Positions 21,185-43,256 of a DNA stretch of 64,000 bases are shown here, one piece after another. Origin of the DNA: a virus. The DNA is taken from positions 1 to 64,000 of IMG/VR virus record IMGVR_UViG_3300008255_000099; one strand, given 5' to 3'. The translations under genes and the position numbers were made by a program. Each line of letters starts with the position of its first letter. Position 1 is the first letter of the stretch. The notes under the pieces are model-generated. The model did not search any database, was not told where the DNA came from, and was given only the letters and a program-made list of their open reading frames with translations.

Positions 21185-21652
21185 CTATTCCGAGAGAAGA
21201 TTAAACACTTTTCCCATTAGAACATCAGATTCCATATGCATTTCTGCTTGATCTAAATAATTTGATGTTTTAATAATTCTTTCAACATTCGCATAAAGTC
21301 TTTTTTCTGCTTTTAATTGATTTATTTCCTGGCGAAGAATATTTATTTCTAAATCAGTATCTTTTTTTGCAAGATTTGTTTCTTTTTCAAGCGCTCTTAT
21401 TTCTCTTTCAACATCTCTAACAAGTTTGTTGTACAGTCTAAATTCTTCTCTTTGATCTTTTCTTATCTCTACGCCCCCTGGCTTCAAAGCAACTCTTCTT
21501 CTTAAAGTTCTGGCCCTTTCTTTTTTCATTTTAAGTTGTTCTTTAAGAGAATCGGCTCTAGCTTGACCAGCTTTTCGTTTATCGTCGATTAACGAAGATT
21601 TAAAATCAATTTGTTTTTGAATTAATTCTGCTTTGCTGCTTTCTCTAGACAT
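21185..21652 (-). CDS. Coiled-coil protein with C-terminal helical tag
   Basis: K/E/R-rich heptads; IIKTSNYLDQAEMHMESDVL at the end. Confidence 0.7.
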   Translation of the reverse strand: MSRESSKAELIQKQIDFKSSLIDDKRKAGQARADSLKEQLKMKKERARTLRRRVALKPGGVEIRKDQREEFRLYNKLVRDVEREIRALEKETNLAKKDTDLEINILRQEINQLKAEKRLYANVERIIKTSNYLDQAEMHMESDVLMGKVFNLLSE

Positions 21653-23513
21653 TTTTATTCCTTATCAATTGCTCTCTTCTTTTAGCCAATTCTTCATCAT
21701 CTCCAAGATTCCCTGCAACTGACTCCCATAATGCATAATAATCATCTGGAGAAACAGCTTCATTTTGCCATTCTTGAGGGAGCGAGTTATGTCCCATGTT
21801 ATACAAATCCCTAATTTCCGGTTCGGAGAGTTGATCGGATTTTGCTCTCTCTGTTGTTGCTTGAATCGGATTTTCATTTACTTCTAATCCTAATTCATTA
21901 AAAACCTCATTAAAAACCTCAAGAATTAAATTGCCATCAGGTGGAATTATTTCACTAAATTTGAACTTGGTTTTAAGAAAGACAGGAAATTGATATTCTT
22001 TTGAAAGCTCTTCTGTGATAATCTCTGTGAATGGTAAAAAATAATAATTTTTGATTAATTTAATTAAATCTGGATTAATTTTTATAGCTTCTAAAATTCT
22101 ATATTTAATGTTCAACCCTAATTCTGGTTTCGCTTCTTCATAGATTTCTTTAACATTTAAAGTTATTTGTTTTAAATAAGACAAGATAGAACTAAACAAG
22201 TTTGCGAACATATCTCCTTCATAGCTCTCATTGATAAGAGAAATATAACTTTCATCATTCATAAGATATGAAAGCACTGGATTGTTAACCAGAAAATATT
22301 CTGTTGCATCGCCAAAAACTTCAACTCCATTTTTTACAATATCTATTGGTAATATTTTTTTATTTTCAAATAATTCCATTAAAAATATTTCTTGGAATGG
22401 AGCGAGAATGCATTCGTCTTGCCATTGTCTAAATGCATCAAAACTTAAATAAACATTTGATCTTGCTTCACTTAATATTTCATCTATGTTTAATTCAATC
22501 TCTTGAGGTTCACCCCAATCTCTTTCAATCTCAATAAATGAAATACCATAGTAATTAGCATTAGAAATCATTCTCTCTATTTCATGATCTTCAAGAAAAA
22601 TATCATAAATTTGTTGAATTTCTCTTCTAATTTCTCTATAGACAATTATATCAAAACTATTCTATGAAATTTCAAAAGCATCTTCTGAAATTTTTCTTAA
22701 TTCTTCATTTTTAAATCTTTCATCATTTCCATGAAAATAATTACTATAAATTGGATCTTGAATTTCATCAGGCCAAAGTTCTTCTGCCGCTTCATACCAT
22801 TCTTCATAGTTAGAAGTATTTATTGGGGGAACAGATATGAACTCTCTCTCTGGTTCTTTTTCTGGCTCTTCTTGTTTTTTCTTGAAAAGATTTCCGATTC
22901 CATTATAAATAAAATCAACAATTTTAGTTAAAAAATTATCTTCTTTTTTCTCTTCTGGGATATCTCCTTGTCCTTCTAATTCCATGTCGTCGCCAATTTT
23001 TTCAGAGATAGCGTCATACAAATGGCCCATTAATCCAGAGTATCTTCCAAATGGTCCTTTAAACCCTAATAATCTTTCTTCTAATATCTCTTTTAAAATT
23101 ATTTCAATAACATCCTTATTTATTGGAGGAAGTCCAGCCTCATTTCTCTGCGAAAGATATTCCCAAATTGCATCTCTAAAAATTGATAAATCGTTTTTAT
23201 TTTTTAAAAAATCAGAAGGAACAAAATATGAATATGAAAGAAGTTTTAAAACATATTTATAAATTTGTTCGTGAATGTCTGCAATCAAATATTTAAAGAA
23301 TTTTTTTCTTTCTTTTTCTATTGCCATATGTTCTGGATCTAATTTAATTTGTCTTAATGCGGTTTTTTCTTTTTGAAATAAATCAGTCCAATTAATGTGT
23401 AGCGCCCCCACATCAATAAAATCGATAGCAGAAATTTTTGTAAAACTGTCACAAAAGGTATGGAATCCTTTATCGTCGAATTTATTAGATAATTTTAAAC
23501 AGAATTTTTTCAT
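21645..23513 (-). CDS. Putative 622-aa amber read-through protein (283 aa + TAG + 30 open codons + 308 aa), or two separate genes
   Basis: TAG at 22662-22664 is followed by NSFDIIVYREIRREIQQIYDIFLEDHEIER, in frame with ATG at 22571; N-terminal tag LKLSNKFDDKGFH. Confidence 0.5.
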
Positions 23514-38167: not shown

Positions 38168-38506
38168 TTATTTTCTTTTAATTTGTGGCAGATTTAATCT
38201 ATTTTCACCTTGAACATCCGATGTCCACAGTTCATTGCTTTGTTGGTTATATTCAGAAGACCCGGAAGATTTCTTTCTTTTTTCTCTCATGTCGTGGACA
38301 TATTTCTTTTTATCGACATCAAGGCCCGCCTGTTTCGCTTTATTTTCAGCATCTGTTAAGACAACGCAGGCGGGGGCAGAGATAAAAACACGGTGGCATT
38401 TAGCGTCACATTCTGGGCATCCTTGTTCTTCTTGTCTTTTTGCTAATGGGACATTTCTCTCAAAATAAAAATCGCATTTTTCACACTTATAATCATAAGT
38501 CGGCAT
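38168..38506 (-). CDS. FmdB-family zinc-ribbon protein
   Basis: MPTYDYKCEKCDFYFE...CPECDAKCHRVFISAP. Confidence 0.85.
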   Translation of the reverse strand: MPTYDYKCEKCDFYFERNVPLAKRQEEQGCPECDAKCHRVFISAPACVVLTDAENKAKQAGLDVDKKKYVHDMREKRKKSSGSSEYNQQSNELWTSDVQGENRLNLPQIKRK

Positions 38507-38835
38507 TTAAATTATTTCCTTTAAAAACTCTGTGTTTCCAACCCAATTAAGTTTTTCAACATTTTCTTTTGTTAGATAACTGACATACTCCCTCCGCTAA
38601 AGCAGGAGGGCTTTCTAGCCGTGTTCTTTGTAATTCCCATCTTAACAATTCCAGTATCATATTTTTCAAGAACCTTTTGAAATGGAAATTCTTTTGCATC
38701 AATTGGAATAAAGACACAATAATTTTCATTCCATCCCATTAAACAAAAATAACTACGCCAAACAAATTGTTTTAATTCATATCTAATTTTTTTCTGCTCT
38801 TTCCTCTGTGTATGGGAATCCGAATCCGTATCCAA
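38507..38835 (-). pseudogene. Hypothetical gene interrupted by a 50-nt mini-element
   Basis: Removing 38580-38629 gives ...KMGITYLTKENVEKLNWVGNTEFLKEII*, ending immediately before the FmdB ATG. Confidence 0.7.
38580..38629 (-). mobile_element. 50-nt IS200/IS605-derived palindrome-associated mini-element, copy 1
   Basis: TTAC|AAAGAACACGGCTAGAAAGCCCTCCTGCTTTAGCGGAGGGAGTATGTCAG; one mismatch to 46087-46136; no target duplication. Confidence 0.8.
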
Positions 38836-38866
38836 TTAAACTTTGCATTTTAACCTCATTCCAATA

Positions 38867-39163
38867 TCATTTCAAATCAACTTCTTCGAAAAATCTTCGC
38901 ATTTCTTTTTGAGCTTGGTCTAATTTTTCACACCAATTGTTTTTTAGAATATCTGAATTATATATCATTTCAGAAAAAATAATTGAATTCCCTTCCTCTT
39001 CTTTAATCATTTTGGAAATTTTTTTAGATTCCTTCATCATATCGTCTTGAATTCTTAAAATTTCTATTTCATCAAAATTATTCCAAAAATCTTCCCTTAA
39101 AGATTTAGCCGAAGCTGCAATGTTAGCAATTATTTCTGGTTTTGCTATATCAAAATTACTCAT
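38867..39163 (-). CDS. Hypothetical protein
   Basis: GAGGT RBS. Confidence 0.65.
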   Translation of the reverse strand: MSNFDIAKPEIIANIAASAKSLREDFWNNFDEIEILRIQDDMMKESKKISKMIKEEEGNSIIFSEMIYNSDILKNNWCEKLDQAQKEMRRFFEEVDLK

Positions 39164-39287
39164 GAATCACCTCTTCTTTTTTGATTATACATAAAATTGT
39201 TAAAATTCTTCTGTTGACTTTTTGAAAACTTCCAGGGTGCCGAAAGGCGGCCCCCTGTGATACAATAGCAGAGACTGGAGGATTTAA

Positions 39288-39968
39288 ATGCTAAACAGAA
39301 ACGACTTGGAGAACTTTGAGAGACCAAAAGAAATTCAGAAATTTCTTGATGAATATTCTGAATGGGAGGCAAAGTTTAAGAAAGAAGCCCCATCAACATC
39401 TTACAACCCATTGTGGTTTAAAAATAACCCAAAGCCGAACATGCCAAGGATTTTACTTATTGATTTAGATACCAACTATTTAAATCTAACAAGAAAGATA
39501 ATAAATAAAAGTTGGTTTTTACCAAAAATTTTTATTTTTTCAGAAGGTAATTGTGATTGGAATTTTTGGTTAATTCCAACATTTGAAGATCGTGAAAAAG
39601 TATTCATAGAAATTGTTGAATTTCTAGTTAAAACTAATAACATTTTTATCACAAACGAACAACCATCTGAAGAAGAATTAAAAAAAGAAATTGAGGAAAG
39701 GTTCCCGTACAAGGACATCCAGGAATCTGATGTTAATGAATTGCCAGAAAATATTTCAAAAGAGTTGCTATCAAAAGCTTCTACGCAAAAAGCAGACTTT
39801 TCTTCTTTCTTGATGTCTAATAAAAAGAATATTGATTTTAACAACCATCTTAAAAAAGCATTAGAAGGGGATGGTGTTTATGCTGCAAGAGTTTTGTCTT
39901 ATTTATCAACTGATTTTCATTCTGAATATAATTATTCATTAGAAGATTTTAAGAATTATTCTATTTGA
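39288..39968 (+). CDS. Hypothetical protein immediately upstream of the tRNA
   Basis: GGAGG RBS; TGTGATACAAT promoter-like sequence upstream. Confidence 0.7.
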   Translation: MLNRNDLENFERPKEIQKFLDEYSEWEAKFKKEAPSTSYNPLWFKNNPKPNMPRILLIDLDTNYLNLTRKIINKSWFLPKIFIFSEGNCDWNFWLIPTFEDREKVFIEIVEFLVKTNNIFITNEQPSEEELKKEIEERFPYKDIQESDVNELPENISKELLSKASTQKADFSSFLMSNKKNIDFNNHLKKALEGDGVYAARVLSYLSTDFHSEYNYSLEDFKNYSI

Positions 39969-39975
39969 ACGATGT

Positions 39976-40047
39976 GGCAACGAGGGCGATTGGTCGAGCC
40001 ATGGCACTCTAAATGCCCCGTAGAGAGTTCGATTCTCTCCGTTGCCA
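39976..40047 (+). tRNA. tRNA with CUA anticodon (amber suppressor type); no encoded CCA
   Basis: Acceptor GGCAACG/CGTTGCC (7 bp), D-stem GGC/GCC with GG in the loop, anticodon arm GGCA-CTCTAAA-TGCC, T-arm GAGAG-TTCGATT-CTCTC, discriminator A. Confidence 0.85.
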
Positions 40048-40066
40048 TTAACAGAGGAGAAAAAAG

Positions 40067-40192
40067 ATGAAAGACGGAAAGTTGGAAATCCGAGAAGAGT
40101 GGAAAAACAATGACCCCGAAGTTTTTGAAGCGCTTTTCATCGAATTAAATCCTAGAAAAACAATCGAGTGGGCCGATCAGATTGTGTTGTGA
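40067..40192 (+). CDS. 41-aa small protein (not in ORF track)
   Basis: GAGGAG RBS; MKDGKLEIREEWKNNDPEVFEALFIELNPRKTIEWADQIVL. Confidence 0.5.
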   Translation: MKDGKLEIREEWKNNDPEVFEALFIELNPRKTIEWADQIVL

Positions 40193-40204
40193 GGTCTTCA
40201 AAAA

Positions 40205-40693
40205 ATGAAGAAACAAGATCTTGACAAGTTGATAGAAACTTTAGATAAATTAAAAACATCTCAAGATTTAAATGAGATTCAAGATCTTGAAGATATGGTA
40301 TTGTTATTTTTTGACCATCATTCATTAATTGATGTTTTTGAGTTTGTGCCATATGAATATATTTATGATATTTTTTATCATATTAAAATTGGCGATTGTG
40401 AAGTTTTTGATTGTTTTTATTTATTTTTAAGAAGTGATAAAGAGCTTGCATTTAAGACATTGTTTTTTTCTGGATATTTTCCATCTGAAGTAATAGAAGA
40501 TATACTTTATAATTTTGGAGTAAAAGAAATAGAATTTTTAATAAAAAAATATCTTATGACTATGGATGAAATAATGGATGCTTTTAAAAATTCTAATCTT
40601 GAAATTGAAACAAACACAGAGGTTTATGAATGGGTTTGTGAGAAAATTAGAAAAGAACAACTTTTATCATGGGCACATAATATACTTTTTTAA
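40205..40693 (+). CDS. Hypothetical protein
   Basis: GAGGT RBS; typical codon usage. Confidence 0.65.
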   Translation: MKKQDLDKLIETLDKLKTSQDLNEIQDLEDMVLLFFDHHSLIDVFEFVPYEYIYDIFYHIKIGDCEVFDCFYLFLRSDKELAFKTLFFSGYFPSEVIEDILYNFGVKEIEFLIKKYLMTMDEIMDAFKNSNLEIETNTEVYEWVCEKIRKEQLLSWAHNILF

Positions 40694-40753
40694 CTTCTAC
40701 ATTGGGTTTTGGCGTCCGCTTGCTGTATAATGTAGGGAAAGGAGACGAGAGAA

Positions 40754-41122
40754 ATGAAAACATTAGACAAATTGTAGGAATTAGAAGAAGCTGTCAGAAA
40801 ACATTTTTATGTTTTAGTAAGAACCGATCTATCCTTGCCTCAACAAATCGTGCAAGCAGTCCATGCAGCACATGAGGCAGGAATTCACTTCGCACACCAA
40901 TCAAACAACACATCCTCTGTCGTTGTTTGTGAAGTCCCCTCTGAACAAGACCTGTTGTTTGCGTTAGATTCCTTAACGCAAAAAGGTATTCGTTGCGTCT
41001 TATTCCGTGAACCAGACATTGGTAATGAAGCTACCGCTTTGGCTTCTGAACCAATTTTCGGGAAACATCGTCACATCTTTCGAAAGTTCAAACTTTGGGG
41101 AAAAGGAGGAACAAATGCTTGA
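40754..41122 (+). CDS. Peptidyl-tRNA hydrolase type 2-like protein with in-frame TAG at codon 8 (40775-40777)
   Basis: MKTLDKL*ELEEAVRKHFYVLVRTDLSLPQQIVQAVHAA...FREPDIGNEATALASEP; AAGGAG RBS and TGCTGTATAAT promoter precede ATG 40754. Confidence 0.75.
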
Positions 41123-41528
41123 AAAAATACAAAAACTTGAAGCTGAAAACCATAAACTAATTTCAACAAATATTGGTCTTAGAAAAATGTTAGCTAGACA
41201 TGAATGGGACGCAGGAACAGGAAGTTGGTATAGATATTGTTGCTATTGTCATGGAAATAAGGATTCTGGACACGAAGAAGATTGTGAATGGAATCTATTT
41301 TTTTACAACAAAGAAGATCCTTCTTTTAGAATTTTTGAATCTTTAGTTAGAACACAAAAATATACAGATTCATTAATTCTTTTATTATGGAGAATCGACG
41401 AAGAGCTTGACGAGCTTGTGACACAAACAAATAATGAAAAATTCAAAGATATGCGAAAAAGAATAAAAAAGCGATTAGATATAATTTTTAGTTATCTTGG
41501 AGATAAAGATAACTATGAGATGGAATAA
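41115..41528 (+). CDS. Hypothetical protein with CxxC/H/C zinc site (likely start MLEKIQ)
   Basis: CCYCHG...GHEEDCEW; AAGGAGG RBS. Confidence 0.7.
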   Translation: MLEKIQKLEAENHKLISTNIGLRKMLARHEWDAGTGSWYRYCCYCHGNKDSGHEEDCEWNLFFYNKEDPSFRIFESLVRTQKYTDSLILLLWRIDEELDELVTQTNNEKFKDMRKRIKKRLDIIFSYLGDKDNYEME

Positions 41529-41541
41529 AAAGGAGAAGTAA

Positions 41542-41619
41542 ATGTTTGAAAATGAGTTTAGGTAGGGAAGGTCACCTCCTTGTCTATTTTTTTCGGAGGC
41601 TAATAAGCAACACATCTGA
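41542..41619 (+). promoter_or_regulatory. Candidate leader ORF with TAG at codon 8 and an anti-Shine-Dalgarno segment
   Basis: AAGGAG RBS, MFENEFR*GRSPPCLFFSEANKQHI*; CTCCTTGTC (41576-84) is complementary to GACAAGGAG (41634-42), the RBS of 41644. Confidence 0.45.
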
Positions 41620-41643
41620 ACGAAACTGAATGCGACAAGGAGA

Positions 41644-41991
41644 ATGGAAATGAAAAAAACAATCTTCGCTTTAAAAGAAGAAATTAAAAAAATGTCTGAA
41701 ATTCAGAAAAAACTGAAAATTTTGAGAAAAACTGTATATCGTCACCCAAAACACGATGAATATTTTGCAGAATTAGGAGTTCAGGGGAATGGCGCTGCGA
41801 CACAGTGCGTCTACAATTCCTATTACATTTCTATTTTAATTTCACTAATGAATGAATTAAAAGGGAATCCAATAAGACATTATCGGGATTGGGTCGATGG
41901 GAAATCCCCAAGTTGCACTTGGGTCAAAAGAATAAATGAAAAACTTGGGATTGAGATAGAAAGACAACAAGCTATTTTACAAATAGCTTAA
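41644..41991 (+). CDS. Hypothetical protein
   Basis: LKEEIKKMSEIQKKLKILRKTV helical N-terminus; followed by a terminator. Confidence 0.7.
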   Translation: MEMKKTIFALKEEIKKMSEIQKKLKILRKTVYRHPKHDEYFAELGVQGNGAATQCVYNSYYISILISLMNELKGNPIRHYRDWVDGKSPSCTWVKRINEKLGIEIERQQAILQIA

Positions 41992-41993
41992 AC

Positions 41994-42037
41994 AAAACAA
42001 ATTTGGCCGAAGGTGTTCCTTCGGCCAAATTTGTTTT
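41994..42037. terminator. Bidirectional terminator between convergent genes
   Basis: AAAACAAATTTGGCCGAAGG-TGTT-CCTTCGGCCAAATTTGTTTT. Confidence 0.75.
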
Positions 42038-42041
42038 AAAA

Positions 42042-43256
42042 TTAAGCTGATTCTTTAAATGACAATGATTCAAGAATTGTTCCAGTAGACGTTGTTGTTT
42101 GGCAACAAAGTGCTACAACATCTGAAACCCCATCAATATCCGCAGCTATAGATAATAGATTATTTACATTAATATTTGATAGCGCATCAGAAGATTTAGA
42201 AATATATCCAGAACTAATTTGCGTCCCATTAGTAACTGTTCCTGTTGCAGTGATATCATATTGTGCTACGCTATTATCCAATGTTACCCATGAGGCTGCT
42301 GTTCCACCCGTTACAGTAGGGTTAAAAATAACAGCCCATCTATAATCATCATTACCAGAAACCGATAGAAAATTTAAACCAATAATTTCTATTTTCTCAC
42401 GTATATAAGAAGAGTTAAGTCTAATTTGAATAACTGGTATTAATGTTGTTGACATTGATTTCGATGTTATACCATTATCAACAGATCTAATTATTTCTCT
42501 TGGATTATGACCGCCCTCTGACATAACAGAACAACAAATTGCATCCATTGTTGTAAGACTAGCGGTTGTATTTGTGTTTATAATTTCATATCTAACTGGC
42601 AAATTCGGTGTCGTCATATAAACTTCCGCTTTATTGTTCGCATTATTAAATTCATGACAATATGCTGGAATCCCATCTATAACAAATCCTAACCTAACAC
42701 GACCAACACCAAGCCATTCTAAATCAATAAAGAAAATTTGACATTTAGTAAAATCTAAATTTATTCCACTTGGACCTGTGCCATCCATTATATCTAAATT
42801 CCAGCTTGATTGAACGACACGAGTATCAACAGCGGATCCAGAAGTGTAACTTCTTTGTACCACTCCCATAACTGTTCCTGCCATTTCAAAGAAAATACCG
42901 TTAGATGCATCAAAATAACCTATTCTCTTTGTGACATTTTCTTTCCCGTCATTTAAATTGCCTGTTATTATTATAAGATGAGATTTTCCGGGTTGATACT
43001 GAAAATATTCTTTCGTTTATCTTATAACATATTCACCAGATACAGTCCCAACCTGAAGTGTTGTTGAGCTTTCATTGATATTATATGTAGTTGAAGCACC
43101 TGCCCCATTTGTTTTTATTGACCAAATAAGTCCATTATCCATACCAATCTGTTTACTATCAAATAAACTCTGGGTATTTGAAACTCTAAGTCTGGCAAAA
43201 GCATCTATCGAAGGACTATCACTATATTCAATTTTTGTTGTTGGAAAATAACTCAT
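42042..43256 (-). pseudogene. Phage structural (beta-sandwich) protein interrupted by an in-frame TAA at 43017-43019
   Basis: DAFARLRVSN...VIR*TKEYFQYQPGKSHL; the frame stays open into 42042..42884. The family motif as recalled is IRQTxxYFxYQPGKS. Confidence 0.65.

What the first reader, a model, noticed from the sequence alone, without database searches (positions are those of the whole stretch)
39976..40047. Amber-suppressor tRNA in a genome that still uses UAG as a stop
Seen: a clean cloverleaf with anticodon CUA. Long ORFs are intact in code 11, and about a dozen genes here end in TAG, so the window is not wholesale code 15. Position 8 is A rather than U, G1:C72/A73 does not fit standard Gln identity, and CCA is not encoded. 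Established: CUA tRNAs are typical of TAG-recoded phages. Inference: here it gives regulated partial read-through, or marks an early stage of recoding. The charged amino acid is unknown.
Basis: partly seen in the sequence, partly recalled or inferred. Interest (0 to 1): 0.8.

Follow-up and report, generated by a model that had tools for sequence, protein, structure and literature searches.

The report
Suppressor tRNA keyed to one gene
A large uncultured phage that otherwise uses the normal genetic code carries a tRNA that reads the UAG stop codon; it most likely serves to carry ribosomes past a UAG at codon 8 of a small tRNA-hydrolase-like gene 0.7 kb downstream, and I found the same tRNA-plus-gated-gene pairing in about twenty other large phages, several of them lab-grown.

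Summary
Window 39976-40047 (+) is a real tRNA with anticodon CUA (ARAGORN; Rfam tRNA model, 50.6 bits). It is the only tRNA in the 183-kb record, which is an IMG/VR fragment estimated 58% complete. The genome reads in the standard code, and 38 of 193 crude gene calls end in TAG, 13 of them in the window.

The "early recoding" reading is not supported. TAG is not depleted as a stop. Only one gene needs read-through: a PTH2-like peptidyl-tRNA-hydrolase homologue at 40754-41122 with TAG at codon 8, probably in the same transcription unit as the tRNA.

I found the same gate (ribosome-binding site, ATG, 0-7 codons, TAG; once TAG inside the domain) together with a tRNA(CUA) in 19 other records from at least 11 lineages. 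These include CBB, Serratia BF, ME3, RsoM2USA, XacN1/CM1, Mycobacterium phage Cane17 and IMG/VR contigs. The gate in CM1 correctly predicted a tRNA(CUA) about 100 kb away.

The best reading is a dedicated "key" tRNA for one amber-gated gene. The purpose of the gate and the inserted amino acid remain unknown. Published work on XacN1 and RsoM2USA reports no target for these tRNAs. An earlier follow-up in this scan (e1-5817022) reached the same pairing starting from the gene, on this same window.

The parts
39903..39932 (+). Promoter-like site (TTATCA-18-TATAAT) about 43 nt upstream of the tRNA; possible start of the tRNA-to-hydrolase transcription unit.
   Evidence: Consensus scan, 10 of 12 matches. 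The number of such sites in the region is no higher than in shuffles, so this is weak evidence.
39976..40047 (+). tRNA with anticodon CUA (amber suppressor type): G1:C72, A73, A8, 4-nt variable loop, no encoded CCA.
   Evidence: ARAGORN; Rfam RF00005 50.6 bits, full length; sequence; fold. It is the only tRNA in the 183-kb record.
40067..40192 (+). 41-codon ORF with RBS GAGGAG starting 19 nt after the tRNA; function unknown.
   Evidence: Sequence; no Pfam or PHROG match.
40205..40693 (+). 162-aa ORF between the tRNA and the gated gene; function unknown.
   Evidence: ORF list; no Pfam or PHROG match.
40740..40756 (+). RBS AGGAG, 9-nt spacer and ATG start of the gated gene.
   Evidence: Sequence.
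40775..40777 (+). In-frame TAG at codon 8 of the PTH2-like gene: the codon this tRNA is proposed to read.
   Evidence: The next in-frame start is a TTG 19 codons later, which would remove the invariant Y, R and D of the first strand. It is the only site in 183 kb with RBS, ATG, at most 12 codons, TAG and then a long start-less ORF.
40754..41122 (+). PTH2-like (peptidyl-tRNA hydrolase 2 family) gene, 122 codons including the TAG: the client of the tRNA.
   Evidence: Pfam PF01981 E 4e-4, 21 bits, below the cut-off of 23. A profile of 9 homologues hits solved Pth2 structures: 2zv3 E 3.8e-7, also 1rzw, 1rlk, 1q7s, 1wn2. The XacN1 homologue passes the Pfam cut-off at 25.3 bits.
41115..41528 (+). 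137-aa ORF whose ATG overlaps the end of the PTH2-like gene (translationally coupled); function unknown.
   Evidence: Sequence; no PHROG match.
41559..41594 (+). Terminator-like hairpin followed by a T run; possible end of the unit.
   Evidence: Consensus scan; the only such site in 38500-42200.

Best explanation
The tRNA(CUA) is the dedicated decoder, or 'key', for a single amber-gated gene. The phage otherwise uses the standard code. The PTH2-like hydrolase gene 0.7 kb downstream starts with a good ribosome-binding site and ATG, then has UAG at codon 8. Without a UAG-reading tRNA, the ribosome releases a 7-residue peptide. With the phage tRNA transcribed (probably on the same transcript), processed, given CCA by the host enzyme, charged by a host synthetase and able to compete with release factor 1, the full 122-residue protein is made. 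The hydrolase therefore appears only when, and roughly in proportion as, the phage tRNA is functional. This is a natural tRNA-dependent AND gate. The UAG lies in a non-conserved N-terminal tail, so which amino acid goes in hardly matters. That fits the varying discriminator base (A, G or U) among these tRNAs in other phages. Read-through of the phage's roughly 38 ordinary TAG stops would be a tolerated side effect. Shown here: the tRNA, the gate, that it is the only gate in the record, and the recurrence of the pairing. Inferred: that this tRNA reads that codon, co-transcription, and partial efficiency. Open: why a tRNA hydrolase is gated this way. My favoured guess is that hydrolase output is coupled to the activity of the phage's own tRNA and suppression system, as feedback or as protection. 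Also open: the inserted residue. By E. coli identity rules, A73 with U35 favours Lys, with Gln second; confidence in this is low.
For: 1. The tRNA is real and is the only one in 183 kb.
2. Only one gene carries the gate signature, and it lies 0.7 kb downstream on the same strand, between a promoter-like and a terminator-like site. For a single tRNA to land this close by chance has a probability of about 1%.
3. The client cannot start after the TAG without losing invariant residues.
4. The same gate plus a tRNA(CUA) in the same record occurs in:
- CBB (M-A-Q-TAG) and Serratia BF (M-T-H-TAG);
- RsoM2USA (M-L-TAG), ME3 (M-T-TAG), the 595-kb LR756511 (M-T-H-TAG) and Mycobacterium phage Cane17 (M-TAG);
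- XacN1 (M-K-TAG; its suppressor tRNAs are reported in PMC5852040);
- IMG/VR loci L051-L055 and L064, L067-L070.
5. In L056 the TAG sits inside the PTH2-like domain, with a tRNA(CUA) 0.24 kb away. Re-initiation cannot explain that case.
6. Prediction test: the gate in Stenotrophomonas phage CM1 implied a tRNA(CUA), and one is present about 100 kb away.
7. The tRNA lies within 0.5 kb of the gene in six lineages.
8. Controls: RaK2 has its own ATG, no gate and no clean tRNA(CUA). The complete genome behind L073 has no tRNA(CUA) among its 20 tRNAs, and its gate remnant is out of frame with the gene.
Against: There is no expression, charging or suppression data for any of these phages. The window tRNA is atypical: A8, G13.A22, U27.C43 and no encoded CCA. 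It is also the outlier among the tRNA(CUA) genes compared, with at most 54% identity to any other tRNA in the set, so it could be impaired. The record is about 58% complete, so other amber-containing genes or other tRNAs may lie in the missing part. The PTH2 assignment of the window protein is below the Pfam cut-off. The promoter and terminator are consensus matches only. The pairing counts are not corrected for phylogeny; several records belong to one CBB-like lineage. The genome shows no adaptation to read-through of its many TAG stops, so suppression must be weak or tolerated, and that is assumed, not shown.
Confidence: 0.7

Rival explanations
1. Global read-through tool. The main job of the tRNA is to make ribosomes read through host (and phage) UAG stops, which extends or destabilises proteins and loads the ribosome-rescue pathways as part of host takeover. 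The amber-gated hydrolase is a coupled antidote that recycles the peptidyl-tRNAs produced, not the reason the tRNA exists.
For: The hydrolase would be made exactly when suppression is active (gate). Cluster C mycobacteriophages with the module also carry a tmRNA and many tRNAs (PMC4131195). CM1 also has a UUA (ochre-type) tRNA. TAG ends about 20% of the phage's own genes, so read-through is unavoidable if the tRNA is active.
Against: No back-up-stop enrichment or any other sign that the phage protects its own TAG-terminated genes. The one conserved genomic correlate of the tRNA is the gate itself. In L073, loss of the tRNA goes with decay of the gated gene. No host effect has been measured.
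Confidence: 0.14
2. Early or arrested stage of TAG-to-sense recoding (code 15). The tRNA was acquired first and in-frame TAGs are only starting to accumulate; this is the route proposed for recoded gut phages.
For: Low GC (32.5%). [quoted passage not shown] One gene already carries an in-frame TAG.
Against: TAG is a frequent stop (38 of 193), not depleted as that model requires. No other convincing in-frame TAG in 183 kb. The same single gated gene is kept in phages as far apart as those of Mycobacterium, enterobacteria and Xanthomonas, which indicates a stable and specific arrangement.
Confidence: 0.05
3. Decaying or non-functional tRNA gene, with the TAG in the hydrolase gene a plain nonsense mutation in a dying gene.
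For: Unusual core: A8 in place of U8, G21, G13.A22, U27.C43, no CCA. The predicted MFE is not the cloverleaf. No close tRNA relative in IMG/VR or in 185,579 reference genomes.
Against: The 7-bp acceptor and 5-bp T stems are perfect, the T loop and the G18-G19 pair are canonical, and the loop CU-CUA-AA is as expected for a tRNA reading a U-starting codon. The model score of 50.6 bits is well above threshold. The gate has an intact RBS and ATG, and the ORF after it is open for 114 codons with family-invariant residues kept. An early TAG is the rule in this family, not an accident.
Confidence: 0.07
4. The tRNA-like gene serves a non-decoding role, for example as a decoy for host tRNA-targeting defence nucleases, a processing signal in the polycistronic RNA, or an integration-site mimic.
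For: It sits inside an operon, 7 nt after one ORF and 19 nt before the next. Phage tRNAs have been proposed to replace or shield host tRNAs under attack (general knowledge).
Against: None of these roles explains why the anticodon is always CUA, or why it co-occurs with a UAG-gated gene. No integrase or att-like partial tRNA copy was seen near it.
Confidence: 0.04

Closest known systems
Suppressor tRNA(CUA) genes reported in standard-code jumbo phages (Xanthomonas phage XacN1, Ralstonia phage RsoM2USA; also annotated in Acinetobacter phage ME3)
   Same: A CUA-anticodon tRNA in a large phage whose genes are read in the standard code and often end in TAG; the host uses the standard code.
   Different: The papers found no target. 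[quoted passage not shown] The RsoM2USA paper only notes that UAG is abundant (PMC8504454). Here a specific client is identified, and it is present in those same phages: XacN1 ORF364 preceded by ATG-AAG-TAG, RsoM2USA M-L-TAG, ME3 M-T-TAG. The window tRNA is not a sequence relative of theirs in any clear way.
TAG-recoded phages ('code 15': crAss-like, Lak and other gut phages) with their own tRNA(CUA)
   Same: A phage-encoded tRNA(CUA) overrides a host stop codon so that phage genes with in-frame TAG can be translated. The tRNA can act as a timing or regulatory switch (Borges et al. preprint 10.1101/2021.08.26.457843).
   Different: In those phages, dozens of late and lysis genes carry in-frame TAGs and TAG is nearly lost as a terminator. 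Here there is one gated gene, and TAG ends about 20% of genes. No release factor or synthetase gene is in the fragment.
Synthetic suppressor-tRNA feed-forward 'leak dampener' circuits in E. coli (PMC7969014, seen)
   Same: The logic is the same: an amber codon early in the target gene and a co-expressed suppressor tRNA, so that protein appears only when both are transcribed. This cuts leak and adds a delay.
   Different: This one is natural, conserved and phage-borne, and the gated product is itself an enzyme that acts on tRNA esters, so a feedback loop is possible. I read only the abstract of that paper.
prfB (release factor 2) autoregulation through an early in-frame UGA (established knowledge, not tested here)
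   Same: A translation-apparatus gene carries an early in-frame stop codon, so its own synthesis reports on the state of termination or decoding in the cell.
   Different: prfB escapes its stop by +1 frameshifting when RF2 is scarce. Here escape would need a dedicated tRNA, and no slippery site is present at the window's TAG.

Membership tests
Amber suppressor tRNA (tRNA-Sup-CUA), phage-encoded | Sequence and structure fit the general tRNA model over its full length | tested here: met
   RF00005 50.6 bits against a gathering score of 29, model positions 1-71; ARAGORN call.
Amber suppressor tRNA (tRNA-Sup-CUA), phage-encoded | 7-nt anticodon loop with U33 and C34-U35-A36 | tested here: met
   The loop is CUCUAAA in the Rfam alignment. 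A36-A37-A38 is as in tRNAs that read U-starting codons (established knowledge).
Amber suppressor tRNA (tRNA-Sup-CUA), phage-encoded | A coding UAG that requires it | tested here: met
   TAG at codon 8 of the PTH2-like gene with no usable start after it. In relative L056 the TAG is inside the domain.
Amber suppressor tRNA (tRNA-Sup-CUA), phage-encoded | It is expressed, aminoacylated and suppresses UAG in vivo | not testable with these tools
   This needs tRNA sequencing, charging gels, an amber reporter, or mass spectrometry of the gated protein.
Stop-codon-recoded phage (code 15, TAG read as Gln) | Many genes, typically late ones, with in-frame TAG | tested here: not met
   Table 11 ORFs cover 90% of the record. 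Other same-frame TAG junctions have an RBS and start right after the TAG, so they are separate genes. There is only one gate signature.
Stop-codon-recoded phage (code 15, TAG read as Gln) | TAG rare or absent as a terminator | tested here: not met
   38 of 193 gene calls end in TAG; 13 of 81 in the window.
Stop-codon-recoded phage (code 15, TAG read as Gln) | Accessory code-change genes (release factor 2, cognate synthetase) | tested here: inconclusive
   No RF-1 domain and no class Ic, Ib or IIb synthetase cores in the record, but the record is only about 58% complete.
tRNA-Pyl (ARAGORN's label for any CUA tRNA) | Compact core: one base between acceptor and D stems, a 5-nt D loop without G18-G19, a 6-bp anticodon stem, a 3-nt variable loop, no T-Psi-C motif (established knowledge) | tested here: not met
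   The window tRNA has two linker bases (A8, G9), an 8-nt D loop with GG, a 4- to 5-bp anticodon stem, a 4-nt variable loop and T loop UUCGAUU.
tRNA-Pyl (ARAGORN's label for any CUA tRNA) | Pyrrolysyl-tRNA synthetase (pylS) in the same genome | tested here: not met
   No TIGR02367 match in the record; the fragment caveat applies.
Gln-type amber suppressor (E. coli GlnRS identity set) | Weak 1:72 pair (U1:A72), G73, G2:C71, G3:C70 (established knowledge) | tested here: not met
   G1:C72, A73, C3:G70. The host and its charging route are unknown, so Gln is not excluded.
PTH2 peptidyl-tRNA hydrolase family (the client gene) | Sequence-profile membership | tested here: inconclusive
   Window protein: PF01981 at 21 bits, below the cut-off of 23. 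XacN1 homologue: 25.3 bits, above it. A 9-member profile hits solved Pth2 chains, best E 3.8e-7. At family level membership is likely.
PTH2 peptidyl-tRNA hydrolase family (the client gene) | Hydrolyses the ester bond of peptidyl-tRNA | not testable with these tools
   This needs an enzyme assay.

The most novel reading that the evidence does not exclude
Large standard-code phages of many hosts share a natural two-part translational switch: a private amber-suppressor tRNA and a PTH2-like tRNA hydrolase that can only be made when that tRNA works. Because the gated product acts on tRNA esters, the pair may form a self-limiting loop. This would be the missing function of the 'orphan' suppressor tRNAs long noted in jumbo phages.
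Probability: 0.5. Interest if true: 0.75.

Novelty: new variant of a known kind. Interest (0 to 1): 0.62.

Why it matters
Suppressor tRNAs in phages that use the standard code have been reported repeatedly with no known target (XacN1, RsoM2USA). They are usually explained as steps toward recoding. A conserved single client gene would give them a concrete function. It would be a natural example of tRNA-keyed gene gating, a design so far known mainly from synthetic biology. It is directly testable, because the same module is present in phages that grow on laboratory hosts (M. smegmatis cluster C phages, CBB, Serratia BF).

There is also an annotation consequence. Gene callers truncate or skip this gene: there is no CDS in Serratia BF, a shortened CDS in CBB, and a truncated PHROG family.

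Tried and rejected
- DNA similarity of the locus and of the tRNA to 50,697 phage records: no match.
- Exact D-arm pattern in IMG/VR: five hits, none a tRNA.
- Two pattern scans of 185,579 reference genomes, one with the 3' half and one with the 5' half plus D arm: 0 and 77 hits, none overlapping a tRNA. No cellular relative, host or isotype could be inferred.
- Nearest-neighbour isotype assignment against 112 phage tRNAs: leave-one-out accuracy only 47%, so I did not use it. It did show that tRNA(CUA) genes from unrelated phages are each other's neighbours about three times more often than expected.
- Other candidate read-through sites rejected because an RBS and start codon follow the TAG directly: 34476, 93863, 153210, 174026 and 158991. 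Site 22664 remains unclear.
- 66865 rejected because it lies in the CRISPR-like array noted by another reader.
- Back-up-stop enrichment after TAG stops: none.
- Alignment-based locus search failed for lack of a conserved block.
- The neighbouring gene 39288-39968 has no relatives in IMG/VR.
- The XacN1-type query found nothing in IMG/VR.
- PHROG and Pfam gave nothing for the flanking ORFs or for most large ORFs of the window.

Full report
**1. The observation**

ARAGORN finds one tRNA in the window, at 39975-40048 (+), with anticodon CTA. The Rfam tRNA model matches 39976-40047 end to end at 50.6 bits, E 6.9e-10. The whole-window gathering scan returned nothing, which I take to be a filter loss.

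The sequence shows:
- a perfect 7-bp acceptor stem (G1:C72), discriminator A73, and A8 and G9;
- a D stem of three pairs plus G13.A22, and an 8-nt D loop containing GG;
- an anticodon stem of four pairs plus U27.C43, and the loop CU-CUA-AA;
- a 4-nt variable loop, a perfect 5-bp T stem and T loop UUCGAUU;
- TTAACAG after A73, so CCA is not encoded.

The cloverleaf is worth -25.0 kcal/mol against an MFE of -27.7. The sequence folds better than 199 of 200 shuffles.

**2. The genome and its code**

The window is the first 64 kb of a single 183,411-bp virus record with 32.5% GC. It is classed as linear, with CheckV completeness of 58%. This is therefore a fragment of what is probably a jumbo phage of about 300 kb.

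The CUA tRNA is the only tRNA in the fragment. Under table 11, ORFs of at least 100 aa cover 90% of the DNA. Reading TAG as sense adds little.

In a crude non-overlapping gene set of 193 ORFs chosen by a codon-usage score, stops are TAA 113, TGA 42 and TAG 38. In the window they are 51, 17 and 13. Many TAG-ending genes abut or overlap the next gene's start, as ordinary operon junctions do. TAG is a normal and fairly frequent terminator here.

**3. Which genes need the tRNA**

I scanned every TAG on both strands for coding potential on both sides.

Most same-frame junctions have an RBS and a start codon directly after the TAG. These are 34476, 93863, 153210, 174026 and 158991. Their Pfam domains fall cleanly on one side or the other, for example a helicase-loader-like ATPase followed by a DnaB-like helicase, or an unknown protein followed by an RNA ligase. 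They are adjacent genes. Site 22664 remains unclear.

A specific search for 'RBS, start codon, at most 12 codons, TAG, then at least 70 open codons' returns one clean case in 183 kb. It is AGGAG, 9 nt, ATG at 40754, then TAG at 40775 (codon 8), followed by 114 open codons ending at 41122. The next in-frame start is a TTG 19 codons after the TAG. Using it would delete the first strand, which carries the family-invariant Y, R and D.

My own scan had already listed it.

**4. What the client gene is**

- Pfam gives PTH2 (PF01981) at E 4e-4 and 21 bits, just under the cut-off of 23, covering profile positions 4-100 of 115.
- A profile of nine homologues hits solved Pth2 structures and nothing else of substance: 2zv3 at E 3.8e-7, then 24bt, 1rzw, 1rlk, 1q7s and 1wn2.
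- The XacN1 homologue passes the Pfam cut-off at 25.3 bits.
- Mycobacteriophage annotators call it 'peptidyl tRNA hydrolase'.
- PHROG 34073 matches only from residue 46 and is 77 positions long. This looks like a family built from truncated gene calls.

**5. The pairing recurs**

tblastn of the post-TAG protein finds 46 phage records, nearly all jumbo phages. In every lineage I opened except RaK2, the homologue is preceded in frame by RBS, ATG, a few codons and TAG, and the record carries a tRNA(CUA).

| Record | Gate | Position of the tRNA(CUA) relative to the gene |
|---|---|---|
| CBB | M-A-Q-TAG | 3.7 kb away |
| Serratia BF | M-T-H-TAG | 3.3 kb away |
| RsoM2USA | M-L-TAG | 13 kb away |
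| ME3 | M-T-TAG | 0.45 kb upstream, annotated 'anticodon CTA' |
| LR756511 (595 kb, uncultured) | M-T-H-TAG | 8 kb away |
| Mycobacterium phage Cane17 | M-TAG | 0.25 kb downstream, annotated 'tRNA-OTHER' |
| XacN1 | M-K-TAG before ORF364 | two suppressor tRNAs in the terminal repeats, per its paper |
| IMG/VR L051-L055 | M-N-D-P-TAG, M-T-TAG, M-S-TAG | 0.2-7 kb away |
| IMG/VR L064, L067, L068, L070 | M-E-H-TAG or M-A-H-TAG | 3.4-7.7 kb away |
| IMG/VR L069 | M-A-H-TAG | ARAGORN misses it; a syntenic tRNA-like gene with loop CCCUAAA is present |

In L056 the TAG lies in the middle of the PTH2-like domain and a tRNA(CUA) is 0.24 kb downstream. This case excludes re-initiation as a general explanation.

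As a prediction test, Stenotrophomonas phage CM1 has M-K-TAG in front of a 283-aa fusion with no Met after the TAG. No tRNA lies within 20 kb, but a tRNA(CUA) is present in its tRNA cluster about 100 kb away.

In total, 19 records from at least 11 diverged lineages (PTH2-like identity 33-63%) show the pairing, and I found no exception.

The counter-cases fit:
- RaK2 has its own ATG and no gate. Among its nine tRNA-like genes there is no clean CUA tRNA; one 30-bit tRNA-like has an aberrant 11-nt loop.
- The complete 165-kb genome behind L073 has 20 tRNAs, none with CUA. Its ATG-10-codons-TAG remnant is one base out of frame with the PTH2-like body. The tRNA and the gene appear to have been lost together.

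These counts are not phylogenetically corrected.

**6. Local layout**

The tRNA starts 7 nt after the stop of ORF 39288-39968. It is followed 19 nt later by a 41-codon ORF with a strong RBS, then a 162-aa ORF, the gated gene, and an overlapping 137-aa ORF.

A promoter-like site (39903-39932) precedes the tRNA. The only terminator-like hairpin of the region (41559-41594) follows the last ORF. Co-transcription of key and lock is therefore plausible, but it rests on consensus matches only.

The tRNA would have to be cut out of the transcript and receive CCA from a host enzyme. No CCA-adding enzyme, release factor, Gln/Glu, Trp/Tyr or Lys/Asp/Asn synthetase core, GatB/YqeY or PylS is encoded in the fragment.

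**7. Which amino acid**

This cannot be determined here.
- The short variable arm excludes bacterial Ser, Leu and Tyr types.
- G1:C72 with A73 does not fit the E. coli identity sets for Gln, Trp or Glu, all of which have G73 (established knowledge).
- A73 with U35 is what LysRS favours in E. coli, where many engineered CUA tRNAs are charged with Lys or Gln (recalled literature; a lead, not a test).

My guess is Lys, then Gln, then others, with low confidence, because the host is unknown.

Across phages the discriminator is A, G or U, and the acceptor stems differ. In all but one case the UAG lies in a non-conserved N-terminal tail. The inserted residue probably does not matter and may differ between phages. 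What is conserved is the anticodon and the gate.

The ARAGORN label 'tRNA-Pyl' is only its name for a CUA anticodon. None of the structural hallmarks of tRNA-Pyl is present.

**8. Mechanism and rivals**

The best reading is a tRNA-keyed translational gate: the hydrolase-like protein is made only when the phage's own suppressor is functional (confidence 0.7). An early stop makes a failed attempt cheap, costing only a peptide of 1-7 residues.

Why a tRNA hydrolase is gated is open. Coupling its dose to suppressor or phage-tRNA activity, as feedback or as protection, is the idea I favour.

The main rival is that the tRNA acts globally on host termination and the hydrolase is its antidote (0.14). 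The lack of any back-up-stop adaptation after the phage's own TAG stops argues that suppression is weak or tolerated, but does not decide between the two. Median distance to the next in-frame stop is 10 codons after TAG, against 11 after TAA and 7 after TGA (Mann-Whitney p 0.43).

'Early recoding' (0.05) conflicts with abundant TAG terminators and with the deep conservation of a single-gene arrangement. 'Dead tRNA' (0.07) conflicts with the intact stems and loops and the intact gate.

**9. What is known**

- The XacN1 paper reports two CUA suppressor tRNAs and states that no target genes could be identified (PMC5852040).
- The RsoM2USA paper only notes that UAG is common (PMC8504454).
- Atu_ph07 has a UCA suppressor with no target named (PMC6102473).
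- Surveys link suppressor tRNAs to recoded genomes and treat those in standard-code phages as possible precursors of recoding.

Five full-text searches found no paper describing an amber-gated PTH2-like gene paired with a phage tRNA(CUA). The library lacks most subscription journals, so this is not proof of absence.

The tRNA itself is a new member of a known kind. The tRNA-plus-gate module is a new variant of phage stop-codon suppression. Another agent of this scan already reached the same pairing starting from the gene, on this same window.

Noticed in passing
L073 9950-10040 (IMG/VR UViG_3300046457_000084, complete 165-kb genome): The PTH2-like homologue has the usual RBS, ATG, 10 codons and TAG, but this mini-ORF is one base out of frame with the gene body. 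The genome's 20 tRNAs include no CUA. This is either joint decay of key and lock or an assembly indel. A frameshift at the stop seems unlikely, because CAG-TAG-G is not slippery.
   Followed up: partly
L152 9612-9686 (Stenotrophomonas phage CM1, record about 176,611-176,685): CM1 carries a tRNA with anticodon UUA (ochre-suppressor type) next to a tRNA-Gly, in addition to its tRNA(CUA). No client gene was sought.
   Followed up: no
L007 2449-3303 (XacN1 ORF364) and L151 19452-20306 (CM1): In the Xanthomonas/Stenotrophomonas phages the PTH2-like domain is the C-terminal third of a 283-aa protein. Its N-terminal part gives a weak HD-domain hit (E 0.008). The whole fusion sits behind ATG-AAG-TAG.
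   Followed up: partly
L058 242-317 (RaK2 record 195,541-195,616): A low-scoring tRNA-like gene (30.4 bits) with an 11-nt anticodon loop ending in CTA. ARAGORN does not call it. RaK2's PTH2-like gene has no amber gate.
   Followed up: partly
L009 2967-3306 (Serratia BF), L008 3076-3309 (CBB), PHROG 34073: Public annotations skip or truncate the gated gene: there is no CDS in BF, and the CBB CDS starts 31 codons late. One PHROG family covers only the C-terminal 77 positions. This is an annotation artefact of the early TAG.
   Followed up: yes
window 21645-23513 (-): A 283-aa ORF ends in TAG at 22664-22662, and a 308-aa ORF follows in the same frame, with its first ATG 30 codons later and positive coding score across the gap. 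I could not tell whether these are two genes or one read-through product; there is no Pfam match.
   Followed up: partly
G000 158644-160239 (-), i.e. L005 14644-16239: An SbcC/Rad50-like ATPase ORF (AAA_23) ends in TAG after 406 aa. A 114-codon ORF follows in the same frame with its own AGGAG and GTG. This may be a split ABC-ATPase whose C-terminal motifs lie in the second ORF.
   Followed up: no
window 1-64000: The whole-window Rfam gathering scan returned no match, although the tRNA scores 50.6 bits in a local scan. Negative whole-window Rfam results for short RNAs should be treated with caution.
   Followed up: yes
alignment A2 (12 tRNA(CUA) genes): tRNA(CUA) genes from unrelated phages are each other's nearest neighbours about three times more often than expected (30 of 96 top-8 slots, against about 9%). 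This hints that many descend from one ancestor that travelled with the gated gene. The window tRNA is the outlier.
   Followed up: partly
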